From IMG/VR virus record IMGVR_UViG_3300007770_000008: 20,000 nt of DNA; one strand, 5' to 3'. The stretch is from an uncultured virus (IMG/VR IMGVR_UViG_3300007770_000008) (Duplodnaviria > Heunggongvirae > Uroviricota > Caudoviricetes). The translations under genes were made by a program, and so were the position numbers. The notes below the pieces were generated by a model. That model was given only the letters and a program-made list of their open reading frames with translations, ran no database searches and was not told the origin of the DNA. Shown piece by piece: positions 2,383-11,062 of the stretch (position 1 is its first letter; each line of letters begins with the position of its first letter).

Positions 2383-3756
2383 CTAGTCCCCTGGGAAGAA
2401 CACTGGCTGGCCTTCGCTCTTGGCACTTGCGTCTTGTAGTCCGAAGGCCATTTCAAGGTCCTCCTTTGGTGGTTTCCTGTTTTCGACACGAACAGTGCAG
2501 CTCGGCGGCGTCGGGTTGTCCGGGCTTAAAATGGCTCGCAACAGCTTTGCCTGAATATCCGCCATGCTTTTGCCGCGTTCTACGTAGCCGAGCAGTTGCT
2601 GTGTTTCTTTTGGGTCAAGTTCGCGATCAAGCAATGCGGTAGCCATGTTAAGTGCTTGTTCGTTGGTGGCAGCAGGCAAGTGCACTTGAAGGTCCACGCG
2701 ACCCGGTCTGATCAGTGCCGGGTCTAGCTTTTCAGGGTGATTGCTAGTCATGATGACTAGCCTGCCTGCTGAGCGGGTAATCCCGTCCAAAGCATTGAGA
2801 ATACCCGACAACGTCAAGCCGTAACCCATTTCACCGTCAATAAGCGTAATAGACGTCTGCCTGTCTTCTTCGTCGTCACCCCGTCGACGTTGTGTAACGG
2901 CGGCACAGTCTATGTCTTCGATCAGCAGAACGCAGCGAGAAGGTATTCCTTCTACCAGCTTGGCGAATTTCGCGTCGTTCAACCCACTCGCCAGCGACAA
3001 CGTGTATACGTTCAACTCGAGGTGGCTAGCAATCGCGGCAACAGCAGTGGTCTTACCGCAGCCAGGTGGGCCAGCAAACAGGTAGCCTCTGCGGTGCGGT
3101 AAGCCATGTTGCTCATACCAGTCGCCGTCGGCAATGAATTTGTCAACGTCCTGTATAACGCGGTGCAACTGACCTTCCGGCCAGAAGACATTGTCTAAGC
3201 TACGTTGTTGCCCTTTACCGACGCTGTACCAGCCGCTGTCGAAACGGTATACCCAGTACCAGCCTCTAGACGGTGGGCCCCAAGACGCGTCTCTCGCGGT
3301 GGCGACGAAGTCGTATATGAATTCTTTTCCCCAACATAGGGTACTGAGCTGCACCGTTTCCTCGTATGCCTTGTTAGACCCGGCCTTGCTTTCAAGCTCA
3401 CGCCTGGTCCGGTCGAACCACAGCGGCCAACCTTTGAACCAGATTATGTGCCAACCTGGTGCCAGGCTTATTCGTAGATCCGGCCTCTCGCCGTAGTCTC
3501 CTGGGTTGACTGTTCTGAGTGACCAGAATCCTCGTACGTAGTGTTCAGTGTGTTCGTCTAGCCAGTCGAAAATCCAGCCAGTCGCAGGATCATTGTCCGT
3601 CAGCAACATCGTGGTCACTGTATAACGCTTGATCCAGTAGTAGATCTTGTGCGGTACGTTTCGTAGGTAGGCCAGGATTCCTGCTAGTATGCCTAGCATC
3701 AGCCCGCCGGTGAAGAACTGGTTGTCGGACGTTAGCAGGCTTGTGAGCCATTCCAT
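2383..3756 (-). CDS. BCS1-like membrane-anchored AAA+ ATPase
   Basis: N-terminal TM segment NQFFTGGLMLGILAG, Walker A GPPGCGKT, Walker B LLIEDID, LTLSGILNALDG, LIRPGRVD arginine finger. AGGAG SD. Ends in TAG. Confidence 0.88.
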   Translation of the reverse strand: MEWLTSLLTSDNQFFTGGLMLGILAGILAYLRNVPHKIYYWIKRYTVTTMLLTDNDPATGWIFDWLDEHTEHYVRGFWSLRTVNPGDYGERPDLRISLAPGWHIIWFKGWPLWFDRTRRELESKAGSNKAYEETVQLSTLCWGKEFIYDFVATARDASWGPPSRGWYWVYRFDSGWYSVGKGQQRSLDNVFWPEGQLHRVIQDVDKFIADGDWYEQHGLPHRRGYLFAGPPGCGKTTAVAAIASHLELNVYTLSLASGLNDAKFAKLVEGIPSRCVLLIEDIDCAAVTQRRRGDDEEDRQTSITLIDGEMGYGLTLSGILNALDGITRSAGRLVIMTSNHPEKLDPALIRPGRVDLQVHLPAATNEQALNMATALLDRELDPKETQQLLGYVERGKSMADIQAKLLRAILSPDNPTPPSCTVRVENRKPPKEDLEMAFGLQDASAKSEGQPVFFPGD

Positions 3757-3776: not shown

Positions 3777-3805
3777 AAAAAAGCCCCGCCAGAACGGCGG
3801 GGCTT
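3777..3805 (-). terminator. Rho-independent terminator closing the ncRNA array
   Basis: Minus strand AAGCCCCGCC-GTTCT-GGCGGGGCTT followed by TTTT. Confidence 0.8.
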
Positions 3806-3860: not shown

Positions 3861-3982
3861 TTGCAGGCCTGGGAGTCGAACCCAGTCGGCCTCAGTTCAA
3901 ATGAGGATAACAGTCTTGCGATCAGCCCGTTGCCGGGCAAGTTAGTGCTGGACCGCGTTTAGCCTGTCACCAGACACCTGCA
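3861..3982 (-). ncRNA. tRNA-like RNA T1 with a 56-nt Y-module insert (3906-3961); anticodon loop UU-UGA-AC
   Basis: Acceptor UGCAGGU/GCCUGCA, short D hairpin GUC-UGGU-GAC, T arm CUGGG-UUCGACU-CCCAG, anticodon hairpin CUCA-UUUGAAC-UGAG. Confidence 0.75.
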
Positions 3983-3995
3983 ATTGATGATTGTA

Positions 3996-4024
3996 ATTGT
4001 ACCCTTACTACTTGTTTCTAGCAA
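3996..4024 (-). promoter_or_regulatory. Putative sigma70-type promoter upstream of T1
   Basis: TTGCTA (4024-4019), 17-nt spacer, TACAAT (4001-3996) in an AT-rich gap. Confidence 0.45.
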
Positions 4025-4242
4025 CCACCTGAGGGATCGACTAACTCTATAGTAGCGAAGATATGCGGCTCGTCCTCCGCACTGTACTGGTGTTTCAGGT
4101 CAGTATGGTAGAGCTGGGTTACACGGTAGCGGCCAGGGACGACCTCGACTTGCTCGTGATAATCGTCCACAAGTTCGTCATACAGTTCCGCCCCGCACGT
4201 GCCCAGGGTTACTGGGCAGAGGTAGGCCAGATGAAGCCCTAG
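4018..4242 (-). pseudogene. Start-less protein-coding fragment directly after the 3' end of T2
   Basis: Open frame LGLHLAYLCPVTLGTCGAELYDELVDDYHEQVEVVPGRYRVTQLYH...DPSGGC* looks protein-like. Its N-terminal extension in the ORF track runs through tRNA T2. Confidence 0.4.
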
Positions 4243-4244
4243 AG

Positions 4245-4370
4245 TGGTAGGGGCAGGATTCGAACCTGCACTAACTCGGTGTAAACGAGATAACAATCTA
4301 CCTGTCAGCCTGTTGCCGGGCAAGGTAGTGGTGGATCGTGTTGTTGTGCTAACCATTACACTACCCTACC
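4245..4370 (-). ncRNA. tRNA-like RNA T2 (Val, UAC) with a 54-nt Y-module insert (4289-4342)
   Basis: Acceptor GGUAGGG/CCCUACC-A, D arm GUGU-AAUGGUUA-GCAC, T arm GCAGG-UUCGAAU-CCUGC. Removing the insert gives ACUCG-UUUACAC-CGAGU and a 72-nt cloverleaf. Confidence 0.85.
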
Positions 4371-4376
4371 AAATTA

Positions 4377-4442
4377 CCGGGTAAGTGGACGTCGTGAAGG
4401 GCGGATCATTTACAGTGATAACCTTCATTGACTTCAACCCGG
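4377..4442 (-). ncRNA. Free Y-RNA-like unit A with anticodon-loop mimic CU-GUA-AA (Tyr)
   Basis: CCGGGU-UGAAG...GAAGGUUAUCA-CUGUAAA-UGAU...CCUUCA...CUU-ACCCGG. Confidence 0.75.
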
Positions 4443-4445
4443 AAG

Positions 4446-4572
4446 CTGCAGGCCCTGGAATCGAACCAGGTCTAGCCTCTTAGCAGGAGGATAACAATCT
4501 ACCTGTCAGCCCATTACTGGGCAAGTGTACGGTGGATCGGTTTTTGCTGTGCTACCATTACACTAGCCTGCA
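4446..4572 (-). ncRNA. tRNA-like RNA T3 (GCU anticodon) with a 56-nt Y-module insert (4490-4545)
   Basis: Acceptor UGCAGGC/GCCUGCA-G, D arm GUGU-AAUGGUA-GCAC, T arm CCUGG-UUCGAUU-CCAGG. Removing the insert gives GCCUC-CUGCUAA-GAGGC and a 71-nt cloverleaf. Confidence 0.85.
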
Positions 4573-4577
4573 AAATA

Positions 4578-4653
4578 TGCGGGTAAGGGTTTGGGGAAGG
4601 CGTTTCGTACATCTTCCAAAAAGTTGTGATAACCTTCTTCCAATCAACCCGCA
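4578..4653 (-). ncRNA. Free Y-RNA-like unit B
   Basis: UGCGGGU-UGA...GAAGGUUAUC-[ACAACUUUUUGGAAGAUGU hairpin]-ACGAAAC-GCCUUC...CUU-ACCCGCA. Confidence 0.7.
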
Positions 4654-4654
4654 A

Positions 4655-4725
4655 GTCGTAAAGCCGGGAGTCGAACCCAGTACCCGCACAAGCGGGCAAG
4701 CCAGCGTTTGCTACGCACTTCACAA
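4655..4725 (-). ncRNA. Anticodon-less tRNA-like RNA
   Basis: Acceptor UUGUGAAG/CUUUACGA, D-like GCGU-AGCAA-ACGC, central UGCCCGC-UUGU-GCGGGUA hairpin, T arm CUGGG-UUCGACU-CCCGG. Confidence 0.6.
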
Positions 4726-4730
4726 TAAAG

Positions 4731-4858
4731 AGCCAGAGCTGGGACTCGAACCCAGGACCTAAAGTTGGAGTTAACGATTAACCTTCAGCCCGTCGATCGG
4801 GCAAGCTAACGGAAAACCGTGTTTAAGACTTTTGCTCTACCAACTGAGCTACTCCGGC
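4731..4858 (-). ncRNA. tRNA-like RNA T4 with a 55-56 nt Y-module insert in the anticodon loop (about 4770-4825); anticodon ambiguous (UCC/UUC)
   Basis: Acceptor GCCGGAG/CUCUGGC-U, canonical D arm GCUC-AGUUGGUA-GAGC, anticodon stem AAAGU/ACUUU, variable AGGUC, T arm CUGGG-UUCGAGU-CCCAG. Confidence 0.8.
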
Positions 4859-4859
4859 T

Positions 4860-4924
4860 TGGTGCGATTGGTAGCCCTTTCAATGCTACTTTTAGGGCGT
4901 TGCCTCTCAGCACTCCGCAACCGC
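4860..4924 (-). ncRNA. CCA-ended short tRNA-like RNA (65 nt) without an anticodon arm
   Basis: GCGGUUG/CAAUCGC-ACCA acceptor, UGC-UGAGAG-GCA hairpin, GUAGC-AUUGAAAGG-GCUAC hairpin. Confidence 0.5.
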
Positions 4925-4931
4925 ATAAATA

Positions 4932-4993
4932 GCGAGCAAGTGGACGCGTTAGGGGTGATATCTTAAAAGGATAACCCTAGTGCTTCAGCTCGC
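4932..4993 (-). ncRNA. Free Y-RNA-like unit C with anticodon-loop mimic CU-UUU-AA (Lys)
   Basis: GCGAGC-UGAAG...UAGGG-UUAUC-CUUUUAA-GAUA...CCCUA...CUU-GCUCGC. Confidence 0.75.
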
Positions 4994-4998
4994 GTGTG

Positions 4999-5365
4999 TC
5001 ATCGTAGGAGGTCGATCCTCCCCTTTCCTAGTACTTGTTTGATTGTAGCGGATTTACCTGACCGGTGATCCTTTACCAGGCCCGACTTGAAGTCATAGGT
5101 TCGGACCGTCGTATTGTCATGGATCTTTGCGTCTCGGTCGGCTTTCTTCTCAGCAGCCCGTTTCTCCGCTTTGGCTTCGGCAAGTCTCTTGCTAAAGACG
5201 CCGTAACGCTTCCCGCTTGTTCTTGTGCTGGTCACGTCCGTCGATAGTGACGGAAATACCAGTAGGAATGTGGGTGGCTCGGACACAGGAATCGGTTTTA
5301 TTCTTGTGCTGTCCGCCTTTACCCTTTCCACGGAAGGTTTCGATCTTCACGTCTTTCTTGTTCAC
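4999..5365 (-). CDS. Truncated class I release factor homolog (GGQ peptidyl-tRNA hydrolase domain), about 121 aa via a predicted +1 frameshift at CTT-TAG-C
   Basis: AGGAG SD and GTG 5365. Frame 0 reads [39 protein letters not shown]...REALRRL-TAG (5192-5194). The +1 frame continues SKRLAEAK...[17 protein letters not shown]..., matching the RF1/RF2 C-terminal RTYNF...V.DHR motif. Confidence 0.85.
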
Positions 5366-5394
5366 GAGACTGCTCCTAAGTAATCATCAGCAAG

Positions 5395-5522
5395 GCAGGC
5401 CACTAGGAGTTGCACCTAGACTACCGGCTCCGAATGCGTTAACGATTTCCATTCAGCCCGTTTCCGGACAAGGGGCTGGAGACCGCGTTTTACGGCGTGC
5501 TATCTGTTACACTATGGCCTGC
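5395..5522 (-). ncRNA. tRNA-like RNA T5 (UCG anticodon) with a 55-nt Y-module insert (5438-5492)
   Basis: Acceptor (G)CAGGCCA/UGGCCUG(C), D arm GUGU-AACAGAUA-GCAC, T arm CUAGG-UGCAACU-CCUAG. Removing the insert gives CCGGC-AUUCGGA-GCCGG. Confidence 0.8.
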
Positions 5523-5529
5523 ATAAGTA

Positions 5530-5597
5530 ATGTGGGTAAGGTGATTGTTCGAAGGGGTTCTTCATTTGGGGTGATAACCTTCAACTTCAACCCACAT
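5530..5597 (-). ncRNA. Free Y-RNA-like unit D with anticodon-loop-like CC-CCA-AA (Trp)
   Basis: AUGUGGGU-UGAAG-UUGAAGG-UUAUCA-CCCCAAA-UGA-AGAAC-CCCUUCGA...CUU-ACCCACAU. Confidence 0.7.
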
Positions 5598-5634
5598 AAC
5601 TATCGTAGTAACGCCCCCTGGAGGCGTCAAGTGC

Positions 5635-6543
5635 TTAATTCGGATTGAGCGTAGCAAAGGCTTCTTCAACCAGAGCCCTTGCCTTGTCCGACGGCTCGTC
5701 CGGCGTTTCGTCTTCTCCGAAGTCGTCCCCTTCCAACTCTCGGATTCGGGCAATAGCCTCGTCCGACGTCTTCTGGAAAACTACTACGGAAATCAGCAGC
5801 TCTTTGAGGGCTGCCAGACTAAAGCCCTCTGTTTGGCTTGCCCAGGTAGCCAGGGTTTCCGCAGGCACGTCAAAACTGCTTTGACCGGCGACGAACTCCA
5901 AGTACTCTTGCCGTTGGGGCTTACCAGGCTGGCCTATCTCCAGCAAGGTGTCGATCCGGGAAGGTCGGCAACGAATTCGCTTCGGAACTTCGTCAAGGTT
6001 ATTGGTTGTTGCCAGGAAAAGGATCCCGTGGCCCATGCTCGTAGAGCCGTCCATGAGTTCCAGTAGTTCTTCCTCTTCGCCGTACTCACAGATACGCTCG
6101 ATGTCTTCGATTACACCTAGTACCGGACGTCCCGGCTCGATTTGACGAAGCAGTGGCATGCAGCTCCGGAAATGGTCCACCCCGGATATGAACGTGACAA
6201 CTCCCTTACGCTCGATCGTGTCCCGGATTACCAGTTGGACAATTCCGGTTTTGCCGCAACCAGGAGGCCCGTGGAGGAGTACACCACGTTTGTGGGTCAC
6301 GCCCAGGTTTTTGTAGTGCTCGCCTGTGCTCCAAAACCGCCGGATCTCCTCAACGATTTCATGAGCAGGTCCGTTACGGAATTCACACAACCGCTCATCT
6401 TTCTGCTGCTTGCGGTTTGCCAGCGGGTTGCCCCAGTTGTCTGTTTTGAAGTGGTACAGCCCAGAAGGCAACTGGTCAACAGTCTCGTGCGTGCCGGTGT
6501 AGACATCACGAGACGTGTTGTGGCTCCATTGCTTAAAACTCAT
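5635..6543 (-). CDS. AAA+ ATPase
   Basis: Walker A GPPGCGKT, Walker B GVIEDIE, sensor LATTNN, RPSRID. GAGG SD. Confidence 0.88.
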   Translation of the reverse strand: MSFKQWSHNTSRDVYTGTHETVDQLPSGLYHFKTDNWGNPLANRKQQKDERLCEFRNGPAHEIVEEIRRFWSTGEHYKNLGVTHKRGVLLHGPPGCGKTGIVQLVIRDTIERKGVVTFISGVDHFRSCMPLLRQIEPGRPVLGVIEDIERICEYGEEEELLELMDGSTSMGHGILFLATTNNLDEVPKRIRCRPSRIDTLLEIGQPGKPQRQEYLEFVAGQSSFDVPAETLATWASQTEGFSLAALKELLISVVVFQKTSDEAIARIRELEGDDFGEDETPDEPSDKARALVEEAFATLNPN

Positions 6544-8749: not shown

Positions 8750-8771
8750 AGTCAATAAGCGATAATTGAAA

Positions 8772-8846
8772 CGGCAGCGACGGGACTCGAACCCGTAACG
8801 ACAGAAATTTAGAATTTCCCGCTCTAGCCAATTGAGCTACGCCGCC
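8772..8846 (-). tRNA. Amber suppressor tRNA (anticodon CUA)
   Basis: Full cloverleaf: GGCGGCG/CGCUGCC-G, D arm GCUC-AAUUGGCUA-GAGC, anticodon arm GGAAA-UUCUAAA-UUUCU (CUA at 8812-8810), T arm ACGGG-UUCGAGU-CCCGU. CCA not encoded. Confidence 0.88.
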
Positions 8847-8851
8847 AAACC

Positions 8852-8939
8852 AAGGGGAGCCCGCTACGGATGTAGGACTCGAACCTACGTGGTTTCCTTG
8901 CAGGCCGTCTCGTTCCCTGCAGAACGAGGGGCTCCCCTT
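8852..8939 (-). ncRNA. Unknown structured RNA with a tRNA T arm and a potential pseudoknot
   Basis: 11-bp closing stem AAGGGGAGCCC/GGGCUCCCCUU, hairpin CUCGUUC-UGCAGG-GAACGAG, downstream CCUGCA, T arm GUAGG-UUCGAGU-CCUAC. Confidence 0.6.
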
Positions 8940-8941
8940 AG

Positions 8942-9015
8942 CGGCGGTTGTAGGAGTCGAACCTACCCGTGCCCGACACATAGGCCGGACCGCTCAACCG
9001 TCGAGCATAACCGCC
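8942..9015 (-). ncRNA. Atypical tRNA-like RNA (7-bp anticodon stem, 6-nt loop CUAUGU)
   Basis: GGCGGUU/AACCGCC acceptor, GCUC-GACGGUU-GAGC D arm, GUAGG-UUCGACU-CCUAC T arm. Confidence 0.7.
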
Positions 9016-9021
9016 GCGAAA

Positions 9022-9315
9022 CTAAACATCGGTGCCACTCTCACCTACTGATAGGTTCTTTAGAAATTTCGTCACCATCTCGCGATGCTTATCTGCGAAA
9101 TGCTCTACGGCGTCTTTGACTTTTTCTTGTCGGATCTCTTCTGCATGAAACCTCTCACACTGTTCTCTTGTAAAGAAACAGTGCTGAAGAGGGTTCCATT
9201 GGTCGTCTTCAAAAATGACCCTGTCACCCGTTACTTCGACGACTACGTCCGACTCGATCTGCTTGGTGCAGCTGCACATCCAGTAGGCTCTGAATGTGCC
9301 TTTTTTCTTTGCCAT
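9022..9315 (-). CDS. Hypothetical protein
   Basis: ORF track. Start ATG 9315 (MAKKKG) with GAGGT SD. Confidence 0.7.
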   Translation of the reverse strand: MAKKKGTFRAYWMCSCTKQIESDVVVEVTGDRVIFEDDQWNPLQHCFFTREQCERFHAEEIRQEKVKDAVEHFADKHREMVTKFLKNLSVGESGTDV

Positions 9316-9322
9316 GGGTACC

Positions 9323-9433
9323 TCAAAACGTGATTGTAACGTGGTGGGCACACCAGGCCATGAAGCCGAACAATATAAGGCCGACTATCAGACCGGCCCA
9401 AAAACATATGCCGTTTCCGTTGTCGTCACCCAT
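9323..9433 (-). CDS. 36-aa single-pass membrane protein
   Basis: Manual translation MGDDNGNGICFWAGLIVGLILFGFMAWCAHHVTITF with GGAG SD. Fills the intergenic gap. Confidence 0.6.
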   Translation of the reverse strand: MGDDNGNGICFWAGLIVGLILFGFMAWCAHHVTITF

Positions 9434-9456
9434 CGTTGTCTCCGTTTTCGGGCTAC

Positions 9457-9906
9457 TTAGGGAATTCTACCACCCGGCACGGTGATGACCATGTTAACAC
9501 CAGCGTACGGGAGGTCCGGCGGGTTGTCGTGCTTTTTGAAGACAAGGAGCAACTTGACTATAGCACTCGTGTGTAGCTCCCTGATCGTGAAGGTGTGTCC
9601 CTCCGGAAAGATAACAGCCCACCGCTCAGCGGTGCCATAGCGACGAACACTCCTGGTTTGTGCTGGTTTGTGCTTAACGACCTTGAAGCCGTGACATCGT
9701 AGCCAGTTGCGGGCCTTGACACTGTTTTCGATGTCTTCCGACCCGGTGAAGATGATCTCGACATTCTTGTCAACGACTTTCCAGTCGCGTGTCAGCGTGA
9801 TCTTGTCACCCAACATCGCAAACTGCTTTGTTGGCGGATCGTCACGTTGGTAAGCCAGTGGCAGACAGGTGGCGGCCACTACTGCGAGAGCGAAGATTTG
9901 CTTCAT
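9457..9906 (-). CDS. Hypothetical protein with an N-terminal signal-like segment
   Basis: MKQIFALAVVAATCLPLA. AAGGA SD. Confidence 0.65.
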   Translation of the reverse strand: MKQIFALAVVAATCLPLAYQRDDPPTKQFAMLGDKITLTRDWKVVDKNVEIIFTGSEDIENSVKARNWLRCHGFKVVKHKPAQTRSVRRYGTAERWAVIFPEGHTFTIRELHTSAIVKLLLVFKKHDNPPDLPYAGVNMVITVPGGRIP

Positions 9907-9938
9907 AACAATGGTCCTTGTAGGTAGGTGACTATTAG

Positions 9939-10035
9939 CGGGCGAGGGAGGATTCGAACCTCCAACCCGTTACCCAGGCGTTGCCGAATACAGAGCCTGT
10001 AATGGTACCGCTCTAACCAATTGAGGTACTCGCCC
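9939..10035 (-). ncRNA. tRNA-like RNA with an elongated anticodon arm (97 nt)
   Basis: GGGCGAG/CUCGCCC acceptor, D loop AAUUGGUUA, T arm GGAGG-UUCGAAU-CCUCC. The anticodon arm is replaced by GUACC-AUUA-CAGGC-(15 nt)-GCCUG-GGUAAC. Confidence 0.7.
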
Positions 10036-10037
10036 GT

Positions 10038-10115
10038 TACGCAGACCGACACACCCGAAGGCTCACGGTTAGACTTACGGAGCAATATTACTTGCCACAC
10101 CCGCTGGTCTGCGTA
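10038..10115 (-). ncRNA. Unknown structured RNA between tRNA-like genes
   Basis: 10-bp terminal stem UACGCAGACC/GGUCUGCGUA enclosing small hairpins, including CC-UUCG-GG. Strand inferred from context. Confidence 0.5.
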
Positions 10116-10116
10116 G

Positions 10117-10197
10117 TGGAGAGTGAAGGATTCGAACCTTCGACTGACGGCCTTCGTCTTATTGACGGGGCCCGCTCTACCGCTGAGCTAACTCTCC
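10117..10197 (-). ncRNA. tRNA-like RNA with a non-canonical anticodon arm (loop AAUAA)
   Basis: GGAGAGU/ACUCUCC-A, GCUC-AGCGGUA-GAGC, GAAGG-UUCGAAU-CCUUC. Arm GGCC-C-CGUC-AAUAA-GACG-AA-GGCC. Confidence 0.75.
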
Positions 10198-10201
10198 GAA
10201 G

Positions 10202-10287
10202 CGGGGAGTGAAGGATTCGAACCTTCGACCTTTCGTTGCACGAGGAGGCCTCTCGCAACGAACGCTCTACCACTGAGCTAACTCCCC
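10202..10287 (-). ncRNA. tRNA-like RNA with an 11-bp anticodon-less arm
   Basis: GGGGAGU/ACUCCCC-G, GCUC-AGUGGUA-GAGC, variable AGGUC, GAAGG-UUCGAAU-CCUUC. Arm UUCGUUG-CGAG-AGGCCUC-CUCG-UG-CAACGAA. Confidence 0.75.
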
Positions 10288-10321
10288 GTTTGCCCCGTAA
10301 CGGCGGGGCCACCCGTCTGCC

Positions 10322-11062
10322 TTACTTCTTCTCGTCCGACCCCTTGTACTTATCAACCCCGGCGTCTGCCTGAGCTGCTCGATCCTCGTCATCGAACATC
10401 TCTAGACTGGCGGAGGTTACCTGGGCCGTGTAAGCCTCTTGACTCATACCCCGTGTTCTGGTCAGGCCTTTGCTCAAACCCTTGAACAGATCTGTGGTGC
10501 CTTGGCTGTTGTTAGCAGCGGTCAGAACGGCTTTGGCGTTACTAAAGCCCATAGCTTGTGCAACGTCCTCGGCGTCCTGGTTCATGCCGACGTAGGTAAA
10601 GGCCCAGGAGTATTTGCTTTCCTGTTCCTTGACCATCTCTTGCAGCCGTCGTTGAATGGATTGGGCGTTGCTGCCGTAAGGCGTGCCCCACTCAACATGT
10701 GCCGACGCGTTCTCGAGACCGTCGGTCAGCGTAACAAACACCACCTTATCTGGTCGATCGGCTTCTGGCATCTTGACCAGCCGGTCACCGGTATCTGTAA
10801 TCGCTCGGCACTGTGACGCCCATAGCGGGGTCATGCTTCGCGGATGCAGCATAAGTGACGGCACCTCTGCGATCGGTACGGCTCGGTAGACCACGTCAAA
10901 GCCGTTGCTGTCGAACTGGATGAGCGTTACAAAGCACTCGCCCGGTTCTTCGGCCTGCTCTTTAATCATGGCGTCAAAGCCACCGACTACGTCGGATTTG
11001 ATTGAGGACATCGACCCCGAGCGATCCAATAGGAAGGTCAGGTCGGTTCGGTTCTTCTTCAT
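10322..11062 (-). CDS. von Willebrand factor A (vWA) domain protein
   Basis: MIDAS FLLDRSGS, VTLIQFD, MTPLW, VTLTDGLENAS. Confidence 0.88.
   Translation of the reverse strand: MKKNRTDLTFLLDRSGSMSSIKSDVVGGFDAMIKEQAEEPGECFVTLIQFDSNGFDVVYRAVPIAEVPSLMLHPRSMTPLWASQCRAITDTGDRLVKMPEADRPDKVVFVTLTDGLENASAHVEWGTPYGSNAQSIQRRLQEMVKEQESKYSWAFTYVGMNQDAEDVAQAMGFSNAKAVLTAANNSQGTTDLFKGLSKGLTRTRGMSQEAYTAQVTSASLEMFDDEDRAAQADAGVDKYKGSDEKK

What the first reader, a model, noticed from the sequence alone, without database searches (positions are those of the whole stretch)
3861..5597. Array of nine Y-RNA-like modules in two circularly permuted topologies, each coupled to an anticodon stem-loop
Seen in sequence: nine minus-strand copies of one module. 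It has a helix 5'-RRGY-U-GA(AG) / CUU-RYYC-3' with covariation (GGGC/GCCC, GGGU/ACCC, GAGC/GCUC, GGGC/GUCC), an internal loop, and a second stem ending in GUUAUC or GUUAAC that leads directly into an anticodon-type hairpin. In four copies (4377-4442, 4578-4653, 4932-4993, 5530-5597) the helix is formed by the RNA's 5' and 3' ends. In five copies (3861, 4245, 4446, 4731, 5395) it is permuted, capped mostly by a GNRA loop and embedded in a full tRNA. Established: Ro60/Rsr binds a Y RNA helix of the form GGUC-C-GA / UU-GACC with a bulged C, and bacterial YrlA RNAs are tRNA mimics. Inference: this is a phage-encoded family of Ro60-tethered anticodon-display RNAs, unlike YrlA as I know it, which closes the acceptor stem and has no anticodon loop. 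Caveats: the bulged base is U, not C, in all nine copies, and no TROVE gene lies in this window.
Basis: partly seen in the sequence, partly recalled or inferred. Interest (0 to 1): 0.95.

Follow-up and report, generated by a model that had tools for sequence, protein, structure and literature searches.

The report
Phage Y-RNA array, two topologies
A marine phage fragment carries nine small RNA genes that belong to the Y RNA family, the partners of the Ro60 protein; five of them are built as ordinary-looking tRNAs with a Ro60-binding arm inserted, a layout found beside Ro60 genes in other phages but not described in the papers I could search.

Summary
Nine minus-strand copies lie at the stated coordinates: four short RNAs closed by their own ends (s-type) and five ~125-nt tRNA-shaped genes with the same module as a capped arm (t-type). 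The motif occurs 8 times against 0.064 expected.

The Y RNA reading is supported by comparison, not by Rfam, which gave no Y_RNA or YrlA match. Covariance models built only from window copies find significant matches in 87 phage loci chosen solely for a Ro60 gene. The t-module model gave 5 hits at E<0.01, and 17 of 17 hits at E≤10 lie on the Ro60 strand. The s-type model gave 16 hits at E<0.01, and 54 of 58 lie on that strand. Nothing comparable appeared in 214 kb of control loci. Both topologies, and the U-bulge variant, sit directly upstream of Ro60 genes.

The t-type is a YrlA-like RNA in unpermuted tRNA topology: open acceptor stem, Ro60 helix closed by a loop. The "anticodon hairpin" corresponds to YrlA's "V" stem-loop and is anticodon-like in a subset of Ro60-adjacent Y RNAs.

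The window has no TROVE gene, and neither binding nor expression was tested. Verdict: a new variant of a known kind. This scan had earlier noted orphan YrlA-like RNAs in other phages.

The parts
5602..5630 (-). sigma-70-like promoter match (TTGACG, 17 nt, TACGAT) ending 5 nt before the first unit (s4)
   Evidence: Consensus match only; the count in the region (2) is not above the shuffles (mean 1.7).
5530..5597 (-). s4: short Y RNA. Terminal helix AUGUGGGU/ACCCACAU, U bulge, GA/UU, GGUUAUC, apical hairpin with loop CCCCAAA.
   Evidence: Used to build R3.
5395..5525 (-). t5: tRNA-shaped Y RNA (acceptor GCAGGCC/GGCCUGC, D arm, T arm) with module 5438-5488 (CUU-GUCCG-GAAA-CGGGC-U-GA...GUUAAC). 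No anticodon-like hairpin.
4932..4993 (-). s3: short Y RNA. Helix GCGAGC/GCUCGC, U bulge, GGUUAUC, hairpin UAUC-CUUUUAA-GAUA.
   Evidence: Closest look-alikes beside Ro60 are L123 5789-5851 and L099 5903-5921.
4731..4858 (-). t4: tRNA-shaped Y RNA. Module 4770-4822 is nested inside a 5-bp stem AAAGU/ACUUU at the anticodon position. The D arm GUAGCUCAGUUGGUAGAGCA matches D arms of t-type units beside Ro60.
   Evidence: Rfam tRNA 58.5 bits with a 56-nt insertion
4578..4653 (-). s2: short Y RNA with a longer apical part (hairpin with a 5-nt loop)
   Evidence: Found by R3 at 28.2 bits, E 1.6e-4, although it was not used to build the model.
4446..4572 (-). t3: tRNA-shaped Y RNA. Module 4490-4543 (CUU-GCCCA-GUAA-UGGGC-U-GA...GUUAUC), then hairpin CCUC-CUGCUAA-GAGG, a 5-nt spacer and the T arm.
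4377..4442 (-). s1: short Y RNA. Helix CCGGGU/ACCCGG, U bulge, GGUUAUC, hairpin AUCA-CUGUAAA-UGAU.
   Evidence: 19 of 20 identical to L119 5373-5392 beside Ro60, where the loop is CUGUUAA.
4245..4370 (-). t2: tRNA-shaped Y RNA. Module 4289-4342, then hairpin CUCG-UUUACAC-CGAG, a 5-nt spacer and the T arm.
   Evidence: Rfam tRNA 47.8 bits with a 67-nt insertion
3862..3981 (-). t1: tRNA-shaped Y RNA. Module 3906-3958 (CGGUC-CAGCAC..CUU-GCCCG-GCAA-CGGGC-U-GA..GACUG-UUAUC), then hairpin CCUCA-UUUGAAC-UGAGG, a 4-nt spacer and the T arm.
3781..3805 (-). intrinsic-terminator-like hairpin (11 pairs, 8 G-C) with a T run, downstream of the last unit
   Evidence: weak Rfam terminator-type matches
4654..4726 (-). 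degenerate tenth unit: acceptor-like helix, small hairpin, CUU-GCCCGC-UUGU-GCGGGU hairpin, T arm. It lacks UGA and GUUAUC.
   Evidence: Not found by R1 or R2.
4999..5365 (-). RF-1-domain (GGQ) protein gene inside the array, readable only with a +1 shift at CTT-T-AG

Best explanation
The region is a polycistronic array of Y RNAs, the noncoding partners of Ro60/Rsr, of the bacterial and phage YrlA kind. The array has two topologies.

Shared core (shown by sequence comparison): a G-C-rich helix with one bulged pyrimidine followed by G-U and A-U pairs (GGGY-U-GA / UU-RCCC). This corresponds to the GNCGAAG / GGUCCGA Ro60 contact site. It is followed by an internal loop, a second helix, and the conserved UUAYC.

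s-type: the RNA's own ends form the Ro60 helix, as in classical Y RNAs. The apex is a small hairpin, often shaped like an anticodon loop.

t-type: the Ro60 helix is capped by a tetraloop and forms an extra arm between the D arm and an anticodon-type arm. The rest is a complete tRNA cloverleaf with an open 7-bp acceptor stem. This makes it a YrlA turned back into native tRNA topology.

Inferred steps:
1. One transcript runs from the promoter-like site at about 5630 to the terminator at about 3790.
2. RNase P and the 3' tRNA-processing enzymes cut at the t-type units and so also release the interleaved s-type units.
3. Both kinds bind a Ro60 ring, either phage-encoded outside this window or the host's.
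4. The tRNA-like or anticodon-like part recruits a second factor, as YrlA and Yrn1 do with PNPase. This redirects RNA decay or repair during infection.
For: 1. Independent model test, t-type. R1 was built from the five window t-modules only. It was searched in 1.07 Mb around Ro60 genes of 87 phage loci chosen by the protein alone. It gave 17 hits at E≤10, all 17 on the Ro60 strand, and 5 at E<0.01, the best at 33.2 bits and E 4e-5. In 214 kb of control loci the best hit was 19.6 bits, in a locus that had itself been picked with a module-derived pattern.

2. Independent model test, s-type. R3 was built from three window s-type copies. It gave 58 hits at E≤10, 54 on the Ro60 strand, and 16 at E<0.01, all on that strand. 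The control best was 14.4 bits. R3 also recovered s2, which was not in the model.

3. Direct reading. Arrays directly upstream of Ro60 in L092, L094, L098 and L123 contain both t-type and s-type units with the same order of elements. L123 has the U bulge.

4. tRNA shape of the relatives. 21 of the 59 hits of the iterated model R2 lie inside ARAGORN cloverleaves, in 13 loci. Rfam's tRNA model covers 8 such 113-134-nt units at gathering score.

5. Position. All 59 R2 hits are on the Ro60 strand. 56 lie 18-2817 nt upstream and 3 lie about 200-440 nt downstream of the gene.

6. Covariation on the 59 hits. 94% of cells are paired, against 78% in shuffles (0 of 500 reach it) and 26-60% when the partner is slid. 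10 of 12 pairs show changes on both sides.

7. Same element order in Y RNAs of cultured phages beside their Ro genes: Bxz1, Forza, Zooman, Persimmon, Francob, prophiGD43A-5.

8. The UA of UUAYC is the conserved kink dinucleotide of YrlA (passages of bioRxiv 10.1101/312249).

9. Context. In phages, Ro60 genes sit inside tRNA arrays. The window's array lies beside an RNA ligase, an HD phosphohydrolase and an RF-1-domain gene.
Against: - No TROVE/Ro60 gene lies in the 20 kb (Pfam, PHROGs and NCBIfam; profile comparison of six unassigned proteins, best probability 6.9%). In the comparison loci the RNAs lie within about 3 kb of Ro60.
- No whole genome is held, so Ro60 elsewhere in the phage or in the host cannot be checked.
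- Rfam gives no match to Y_RNA or YrlA at E≤10.
- A sequence-only profile of 16 true Y RNA 5' segments did not find the window copies.
- blastn found only short matches, mostly generic T and D arms plus two module or hairpin matches of about 20 nt.
- Binding, expression and RNA ends are untested.
- R2 was trained partly on Ro-locus hits, and its alignment is fitted to the model. Only R1 and R3 are independent tests.
Confidence: 0.75

Rival explanations
1. Ro60-independent tRNA or anticodon-loop decoys. The phage has kept the Y RNA scaffold but uses the anticodon-type hairpins (GUA, UUU, CCA, UGA, UAC, GCU) and the tRNA bodies to soak up host anticodon nucleases or other tRNA-directed defence or modification enzymes, with no Ro60 involved.
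For: - No Ro60 gene in the window.
- 6 of 9 copies carry a 7-nt loop with the Y-U-NNN-A-A/C frame of anticodon loops.
- Near-identical hairpins in relatives differ mainly in the triplet: s1 CUGUAAA against CUGUUAA, s3 CUUUUAA against CUUGUAA.
- Neighbours include an RNA ligase, an RF-1-domain protein and many odd tRNA-like genes.
- That Lys(UUU) and Tyr(GUA) tRNAs are frequent targets of anticodon nucleases is recalled, not tested here.
Against: - The most conserved part of all nine copies is the bulged helix and UUAYC, not the hairpin.
- t4, t5 and s2 have no anticodon-like loop.
- The same RNAs sit next to Ro60 genes elsewhere, which argues that the helix is kept for Ro60.
Confidence: 0.12
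2. Intron-containing tRNA genes. The ~50-nt module would be an intervening sequence removed to give ordinary tRNAs, perhaps by the neighbouring RNA ligase.
For: - ARAGORN in intron mode reads t2, t3 and t4 as tRNAs with 37-55-nt 'introns'.
- In t4 the module lies within an intact 5-bp anticodon-position stem.
- An RNA ligase gene lies 3 kb away.
Against: - In t1-t3 the module lies between the D arm and an already complete anticodon-type arm, so nothing needs removing.
- ARAGORN's spliced products have non-canonical loops and odd anticodons.
- The four s-type copies have no exons at all.
- The module has its own conserved protein-site-like helix with covariation and co-occurs with Ro60.
- No intron family matched in Rfam.
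Confidence: 0.05
3. Decaying remnants of a Y RNA and tRNA array with no present function.
For: - The array is orphan in this window.
- One degenerate unit (4654-4726) lacks the UGA and GUUAUC motifs.
- t4 and t5 lack the hairpin.
Against: - Nine copies keep all pairs of both helices through compensatory differences.
- Near-identical strain variants from three studies show only a few single-base differences.
- The array is bracketed by promoter-like and terminator-like sites.
Confidence: 0.05

Closest known systems
YrlA (Y RNA-like A; Rfam RF02553; Chen et al. 2014, PMC4201824; structure preprint 10.1101/312249)
   Same: - 5' Ro60/Rsr motif GNCGAAG, here with the bulged base as U.
- Conserved YUAY (here UUAU or UUAA), followed by a 'V' stem-loop, T arm and D arm with tRNA-like sequences.
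- Encoded in arrays with tRNAs in phages.
- The element order is identical once the circle is rotated.
   Different: - YrlA has a closed acceptor stem-loop, and its 5' and 3' ends form the Ro60-binding stem (a circularly permuted tRNA). [quoted passage not shown]
- The t-type has an open 7-bp acceptor stem and a capped Ro60 helix.
- No match to RF02553 at E≤10.
- No Ro60 gene within the window.
Short Y RNAs without a full tRNA-like domain: YrlB of Salmonella and M. smegmatis, Yrn2 of Deinococcus radiodurans (Chen 2014), Yrl1 and Yrl2 of Thermus phage phiLo (PMC12135203, passages)
   Same: The s-type has a terminal stem made by the 5' and 3' ends, with the Ro60 motif in a bulge or internal loop, a stem-bulge-stem layout, and a length of 60-75 nt. 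The second Y RNA of Bxz1 has the same GCCGAAGG..GGUUAUC order.
   Different: In the s-type both strands of the bulged helix are recognisable (GGGY-U-GA / UU-RCCC), as the paper says of metazoan and Deinococcus Y RNAs but not of YrlA and YrlB. The apex is often an anticodon-like 7-nt loop.
Metazoan Y RNAs and nematode stem-bulge RNAs (Rfam RF00019, RF01656)
   Same: A bulged helix with a single bulged pyrimidine next to GA/UU. Chen 2014 gives GGUCCGA as the Ro60 contact. An s-type relative beside Ro60 (L098 5837-5900) reaches the gathering score of RF01656, 38.5 against 38 bits. That RF01656 RNAs are Y RNA homologues is recalled, not tested.
   Different: The window copies give no match to RF00019 or RF01656 at E≤10. 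The bulge is U, not C. Bacterial and phage context.
Deinococcus radiodurans Yrn1
   Same: The Ro60 helix retains both strands. Chen 2014 model Yrn1 with a T arm and a possible 'anticodon arm' with a 5-bp stem. It is co-transcribed with a tRNA and another Y RNA.
   Different: In Yrn1 the Ro60 helix is formed by the RNA ends and its 'anticodon loop' has 6 nt. The t-type has a true acceptor stem and 7-nt loops.
Circularly permuted tRNA genes of red algae and an archaeon (cited in 10.1101/312249)
   Same: The same fold encoded in two circular permutations.
   Different: Those are precursors processed into ordinary tRNAs. Here both permutations appear to be end products and carry a Ro60 site.

Membership tests
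Y RNA of the YrlA kind (Ro60/Rsr-associated) | Ro60/Rsr contact motif near the 5' strand of a helix (GNCGAAN0-1G; metazoan GGUCCGA with a bulged C) | tested here: met
   All nine copies have G-R-G-Y-U-G-A(-A-G) opposite (C)UU-R-Y-Y-C. Bulge C occurs beside Ro60 in L092, L094 and L098, and bulge U beside Ro60 in L123 and L104. The motif definition comes from PMC4201824.
Y RNA of the YrlA kind (Ro60/Rsr-associated) | conserved YUAY after the Ro60 motif, at the start of the variable region | tested here: met
   GUUAUC in 7 copies and GUUAAC in 2, lying 8-11 nt after UGA. G[GU]UUAYC has the same spacing in 16 Y RNA segments from six Ro loci.
Y RNA of the YrlA kind (Ro60/Rsr-associated) | encoded within about 4 kb of a Ro60 (TROVE) gene, on the same strand | tested here: not met
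   No TROVE match in any window ORF. The rest of the genome is not held. Homologous units in other phages do meet the criterion.
Y RNA of the YrlA kind (Ro60/Rsr-associated) | tRNA-like domain with T and D arms | tested here: met
   Met for the five t-type copies (cloverleaves; Rfam tRNA for t2 and t4). Not present in the four s-type copies.
Y RNA of the YrlA kind (Ro60/Rsr-associated) | circularly permuted layout: closed acceptor stem-loop, with the RNA ends forming the Ro60 stem | tested here: not met
   The t-type has an open acceptor stem and a capped Ro60 helix. This is the point of difference from the published description.
Y RNA of the YrlA kind (Ro60/Rsr-associated) | match to Rfam RF02553 at gathering score (69 bits) | tested here: not met
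   No match at E≤10. Known phage YrlAs beside Ro genes also score below gathering, at 31-52 bits.
Y RNA of the YrlA kind (Ro60/Rsr-associated) | physical binding to Ro60/Rsr | not testable with these tools
   Needs EMSA or co-immunoprecipitation.
tRNA (RF00005) | cloverleaf with acceptor, D, anticodon and T arms in canonical spacing | tested here: inconclusive
   t2 and t4 pass the gathering score but only with 56-67-nt insertions. t1, t3 and t5 do not pass. In t1-t3 the anticodon-type arm, a 4-5-nt spacer and the T arm are canonical, but about 50 nt separate the D arm from that arm.
tRNA genes with introns | removal of the insert restores a canonical anticodon arm | tested here: not met
   ARAGORN's spliced products have non-canonical loops. 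The s-type copies have no exons.

The most novel reading that the evidence does not exclude
The t-type RNAs are genuine, processed tRNA-shaped molecules with a free CCA end and an authentic anticodon arm that also carry a Ro60 handle. They would be 'Ro60-tagged tRNAs'. On this reading the anticodon triplet addresses each RNA, and the Ro60 ring and nuclease tethered to it, to a particular anticodon-reading factor: an anticodon nuclease, a modification enzyme, a synthetase or the ribosome. These unpermuted forms would also be the ancestral state from which permuted YrlA arose by read-through of tandem units, the dimeric-tRNA origin proposed by Sim and Wolin as cited in 10.1101/312249.
Probability: 0.2. 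Interest if true: 0.85.

Novelty: new variant of a known kind. Interest (0 to 1): 0.65.

Why it matters
Published descriptions treat bacterial Y RNAs as circularly permuted tRNA mimics without a free acceptor end or an anticodon loop. This window, together with at least 13 Ro60-bearing phage loci in IMG/VR, shows a sister form. It keeps the native tRNA ends and an anticodon-type arm and carries the Ro60 site as an added, capped arm. It is mixed in one array with minimal Y RNAs.

This matters in three ways:
- It gives a concrete intermediate for the proposed tRNA origin of Y RNAs.
- It suggests that earlier surveys could have missed them. [quoted passage not shown] Gene finders either miss these RNAs or call them tRNAs with odd anticodons. 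One Y-type unit of Gordonia phage Forza is annotated tRNA-Gln (L040 5540-5607) and one of prophiGD43A-5 is annotated tRNA-Thr.

It also gives a ready set of natural variants for testing what the tRNA-like half of a Y RNA recruits during phage infection.

Tried and rejected
- Rfam at E≤10 on the region and on s1 alone gave no Y RNA family.
- blastn of the region against 50,697 phage records gave no match.
- Two module patterns scanned over IMG/VR gave only chance matches in coding DNA or on the strand opposite to tRNAs.
- Neighbouring proteins gave no close relatives in IMG/VR (AAA protein; vWA-like protein).
- RNA ligase relatives in metagenomes (31 loci, at most 51% identity) carry no module. 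They were then used as controls.
- Whole genome of the window: none is held.
- Sequencing runs: 6 runs from 3 studies hold the stretch, all marine or seawater DNA assemblies, and 4 may be the source. No RNA holder is listed. Laying the contigs showed only near-identical strain variants and ordinary tRNAs of other organisms matching the arms of t4.
- RF02553 searched in one IMG/VR record and 14 control genomes: nothing over the cut-off.
- Agrobacterium phage Atu_ph07: no recognisable Y RNA in the 650-nt gap after its Ro-like gene.
- An nhmmer profile of 16 true 5' segments found nothing significant in the window.
- blastn-short against Ro loci found mostly T and D arm matches.
- TAG recoding as an explanation for short ORFs: no convincing ORF fusion.
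- Earlier notes of this scan, searched by sequence: none.
- Two reviews (PMC10870794, PMC6047535) are not held, so a published mention of unpermuted forms there cannot be excluded. The supplements of Chen 2014, with the tables of phage YrlAs, were not opened.
- Literature searches for an unpermuted form returned only the known YrlA papers.

Full report
**What is there.** The window is phage-like DNA with nearly all genes on the minus strand. It occurs in marine metagenome assemblies, and no whole genome is held for it.

Between 3862 and 5597 the minus strand carries nine related small RNA genes.
- Four are 62-76 nt long: s1 4377-4442, s2 4578-4653, s3 4932-4993 and s4 5530-5597. Their 5' and 3' ends pair into a 6-8-bp helix.
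- Five are about 120-130 nt long: t1 3862-3981, t2 4245-4370, t3 4446-4572, t4 4731-4858 and t5 5395-5525. They fold as tRNA cloverleaves with a 7-bp acceptor stem, a D arm and a T arm.
- Rfam's tRNA model covers t2 and t4 end to end, but only by skipping 67 and 56 nt.

All nine share one module:
- a G-C-rich helix (GGGC/GCCC, GGGU/ACCC, GAGC/GCUC, GGGC/GUCC) with one bulged U;
- G-U and A-U pairs (UGA opposite CUU);
- an internal loop;
- a second 4-5-bp helix (CGGUC/GACUG, CGAUC/GAUUG, CGGUU/AAUCG; GAAGG/CCUUC in the s-type);
- directly after that helix, UUAUC or UUAAC.

In the s-type the first helix is open at the RNA's ends. In the t-type it is capped (GCAA, GUAA, GAAA, a longer loop with GCAA, or AUCGA) and the second helix opens into the tRNA body.

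The motif G[GA]G[CT]TGA..GTTA[AT]C occurs 8 times, all on one strand. Simulated sequences gave a mean of 0.064 and a maximum of 2 in 500 runs.

Three corrections apply. Only 6 of 9 copies have the 7-nt anticodon-like hairpin. t4 and t5 have none. s2 has a 5-nt loop.

**No family in Rfam, and no Ro60 gene in the window.** Rfam gave no match to Y_RNA or YrlA at E≤10, neither on the region nor on s1 alone.

Pfam, PHROGs and NCBIfam name the following:
- an RNA ligase (436-1140);
- an HD phosphohydrolase (1144-1836);
- two AAA ATPases (2383-3756 and 5635-6543);
- an RF-1-domain protein inside the array;
- a vWA-like protein (10322-11062).

None of the libraries finds a TROVE protein. A profile of seven phage Ro60 proteins compared with six unassigned window proteins gave at best 6.9% probability, on a generic vWA metal-site motif.

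**Link to known Y RNAs.** Chen et al. 2014 (PMC4201824, whole text read) define bacterial YrlA by four features:
- a 5' motif GNCGAAN0-1G, likened to the GGUCCGA contacted by Xenopus Ro60;
- a conserved YUAY that begins the variable region;
- an optional 'V' stem-loop;
- then a T arm, a closed acceptor-like stem-loop and a D arm.

I fetched the Ro-like gene of mycobacteriophage Bxz1 and read the 480 nt upstream of it. Rfam finds the tRNA-like core of a YrlA there, at 32.5 bits.

That sequence runs: 5' stem, GCCGAGAG, 6 nt, GGUUAC, hairpin CUC-AUUGCAA-GAG, T arm, closed stem, D arm, ...CACCAUGU, 3' stem. A second, shorter RNA follows: 5' stem, GCCGAAGG, 6 nt, GGUUAUC ... CACCAUGU, 3' stem.

The same order recurs in Y RNAs beside the Ro genes of Gordonia, Microbacterium, Streptomyces and M. 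abscessus phages. The window's GUUAUC is therefore the YUAY of YrlA. The UGAAG motif is GNCGAAG with a different bulged base. The 'anticodon hairpin' sits where YrlA has its V stem-loop.

The structure preprint (10.1101/312249, passages only) adds that the UA of this motif makes a conserved kink. [quoted passage not shown]

**Independent test with models made from the window alone.** I collected 87 loci solely because they encode a Ro60 relative. Seven came from cultured phages. Eighty were the best of 386 IMG/VR relatives. Together they hold 1.07 Mb. The controls were 37 loci (214 kb) fetched earlier for other reasons.

- Model R1 was built from the five window t-modules. In the Ro60 loci it gave 17 matches at E≤10, all 17 on the Ro60 strand. 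Five had E<0.01: L094, L119, L110, L123 and L116. The best control match was 19.6 bits, in L001, a locus that had been picked with a module-derived pattern.
- Model R3 was built from s1, s3 and s4. It gave 58 matches at E≤10, 54 on the Ro60 strand. Sixteen had E<0.01, all on that strand. One of these lies in Gordonia phage Forza, between its tmRNA and a tRNA. The control best was 14.4 bits. R3 also recovered s2, which was left out of the model, at E 1.6e-4.
- A simple descriptor of the s-type found 4 matches in the window, 0 in the controls and 22 in the Ro60 loci, 20 of them on the Ro60 strand.
- The iterated model R2, trained on window and Ro-locus hits and so not independent, gave 59 matches at E≤1, all on the Ro60 strand. 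Fifty-six lie 18-2817 nt upstream and three lie about 200-440 nt downstream of the gene. Gene ends were approximated where the match starts at 6001.

**Both topologies occur beside Ro60.** I read four of these arrays directly.
- L094 (Ro60 at 688) has two t-type units followed by two s-type units. One t-type unit runs: acceptor GGACGCC/GGUGUCC, D arm, CUU-GCCC-UCU-GGGC-C-GA, 9 nt, GUUAUC, hairpin with loop CUGAUAA, T arm. One s-type unit runs CCGGGC-C-GAAG..GGUUAUC...CUU-GCCCGG.
- L092 and L098 are alike.
- L123 has the U bulge (GGAC-U-GAAG, GUAAC-U-GA). Its s-type unit at 5789-5851 resembles s3 closely.
- Twenty-one of the 59 R2 matches lie inside ARAGORN cloverleaves of about 120-170 nt, in 13 loci.
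- Rfam's tRNA model covers eight such units (113-134 nt) at gathering score in the ten loci tested. No YrlA match reaches gathering there.
- The D arm of t4 and the start of the following stem are 23 of 24 identical to a t-type unit beside Ro60 in L116.

On the 59 aligned matches, 94% of cells pair. Shuffles gave 78% (0 of 500 reach the observed value) and slid partners gave 26-60%. Ten of 12 pairs change on both sides. That alignment is fitted to the model.

**What the t-type is.** Rotating the circle, the t-type and YrlA are colinear: Ro60 strand, UUAYC, hairpin, T arm, acceptor, D arm, UAAAC.., second-helix strand, CAGCAC-like loop, CUU, Ro60 strand. For example, t1 has ..UAAACGCGGUCCAGCAC.. 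and a prophiGD43A-5 unit has ..UAAACCCCGGUCAGCAC...

The difference is where the circle is open. YrlA is open in the Ro60 helix and closed at the acceptor. The t-type is open at the acceptor and closed at the Ro60 helix.

In t1-t3 the hairpin, a 4-5-nt spacer and the T stem have the spacing of a class I tRNA's anticodon arm, variable loop and T arm. By sequence, then, the t-type is a complete tRNA with the Ro60 arm inserted between the D arm and the anticodon arm. Which arm stacks on the D stem cannot be told here.

**The anticodon-like hairpin.** I examined 176 distinct Y-type segments near Ro60 in 75 loci with a crude hairpin finder.
- A 7-nt loop was the commonest class: 40 of 176, against 10% in shuffles.
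- Within those 40 loops, position 2 is U in 30 (25% in shuffles) and position 6 is a purine in 30 (47% in shuffles). Triplets vary widely.
- Two window hairpins have near-identical relatives that differ in the triplet: CUGUAAA against CUGUUAA, and CUUUUAA against CUUGUAA.

An anticodon-loop shape is therefore a recurrent but not universal feature of phage Y RNAs. It is not peculiar to this window. I saw it noted in none of the passages I read.

**How it most likely works.** Shown: family membership at the level of architecture and model matches, co-occurrence of homologues with Ro60, and covariation of both helices.

Inferred:
- One transcript runs from a promoter-like site (5630-5602, ending 5 nt before s4) to a strong terminator-like hairpin (3805-3781). 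Neither count is above chance.
- Units are released by tRNA-processing enzymes at the t-type units, which alternate with s-type units at spacings of 3-6 nt. Chen 2014 showed a comparable case in Deinococcus, a Yrn2-tRNA-Yrn1 precursor.
- The bulged helix binds Ro60, and the tRNA-like part recruits a second factor.
- Published precedents are Ro60-Y RNA-PNPase complexes in Deinococcus and Salmonella and for a Thermus phage Ro60 (PMC12135203, passages).

The rivals are Ro60-independent decoys, intron-bearing tRNAs and decay. They are set out with their evidence in their own section.

**Novelty and limits.** Five literature searches and the texts read describe only the permuted form. Chen 2014 discarded candidates overlapping annotated tandem tRNA genes, which could have hidden t-type units. 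Two reviews are not held and the supplementary tables were not opened, so prior mention cannot be excluded.

The window itself lacks Ro60, and expression and binding are untested. I file it as a new variant of a known kind: unpermuted, tRNA-topology Y RNAs mixed with minimal Y RNAs, here in an array without a Ro60 gene within 20 kb. Earlier notes of this scan had recorded orphan YrlA-like RNAs in other phages and Ro60 within phage tRNA arrays.

Noticed in passing
window 4999-5365 (-): An RF-1-domain (GGQ) protein gene lies inside the array and is readable only with a +1 shift at CTT-T-AG. With the shift, the 121-aa product matches Pfam RF-1 positions 7-116 of 116 at E 5e-28. The downstream ORF alone scores 16.9 bits. 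The site CUU UAG C resembles the prfB frameshift site (recalled). A homologue in Ro60 locus L069 is in one frame. The shift is therefore either programmed or an assembly indel.
   Followed up: partly
window 8771-8847 (-): A tRNA with anticodon CUA (amber-suppressor type; ARAGORN calls it tRNA-Pyl) scores 58.4 bits on Rfam's tRNA model. Listing ORFs with TAG=Q gave no convincing sign of recoding. Its possible link to the UAG at the frameshift site of the RF-1-domain gene was not explored.
   Followed up: partly
window 8850-10290 (-): A second cluster of tRNA-like genes has elaborated or elongated anticodon arms (for example 9939-10035, 10117-10197, 10202-10287, 8941-9015), and a 90-nt helix-closed RNA lies at 8851-8940. 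None carries the UGA..GUUAUC module.
   Followed up: partly
window 4654-4726 and 4862-4925 (-): Two more small structured units lie in the array. One is a minimal tRNA-like unit with a CUU-GCCCGC-UUGU-GCGGGU hairpin but no UGA or GUUAUC. The other is a 64-nt RNA closed by an 8-bp terminal helix.
   Followed up: partly
window 10322-11062 (-): A vWA-like protein (phrog_7371, E 4e-43; MIDAS-type DxSGS motif) has homologues a few kb from Ro60 genes in L064 and L108 (tblastn 33-36% identity).
   Followed up: partly
L040 5394-5455 and 5540-5607 (Gordonia phage Forza, NC_070763); L044 2247-2325 (prophiGD43A-5): Cultured-phage records hold Y RNAs that are unannotated or mislabelled. In Forza an unannotated s-type match lies between the tmRNA and a tRNA. 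A unit annotated tRNA-Gln in Forza begins with GGGCCGAAG..GGUUACC. A unit annotated tRNA-Thr in prophiGD43A-5 overlaps an Rfam YrlA match.
   Followed up: partly
L098 5837-5900: An s-type Y RNA directly upstream of a phage Ro60 gene reaches the gathering score of Rfam RF01656 (nematode ceN72-3_ceN74-2), 38.5 against 38 bits.
   Followed up: no
L044 2230-3000: An array of at least five YrlA-type units lies upstream of the Ro gene of an M. abscessus prophage. Their 5' motif reads CAGGAC rather than GNCGAA.
   Followed up: no
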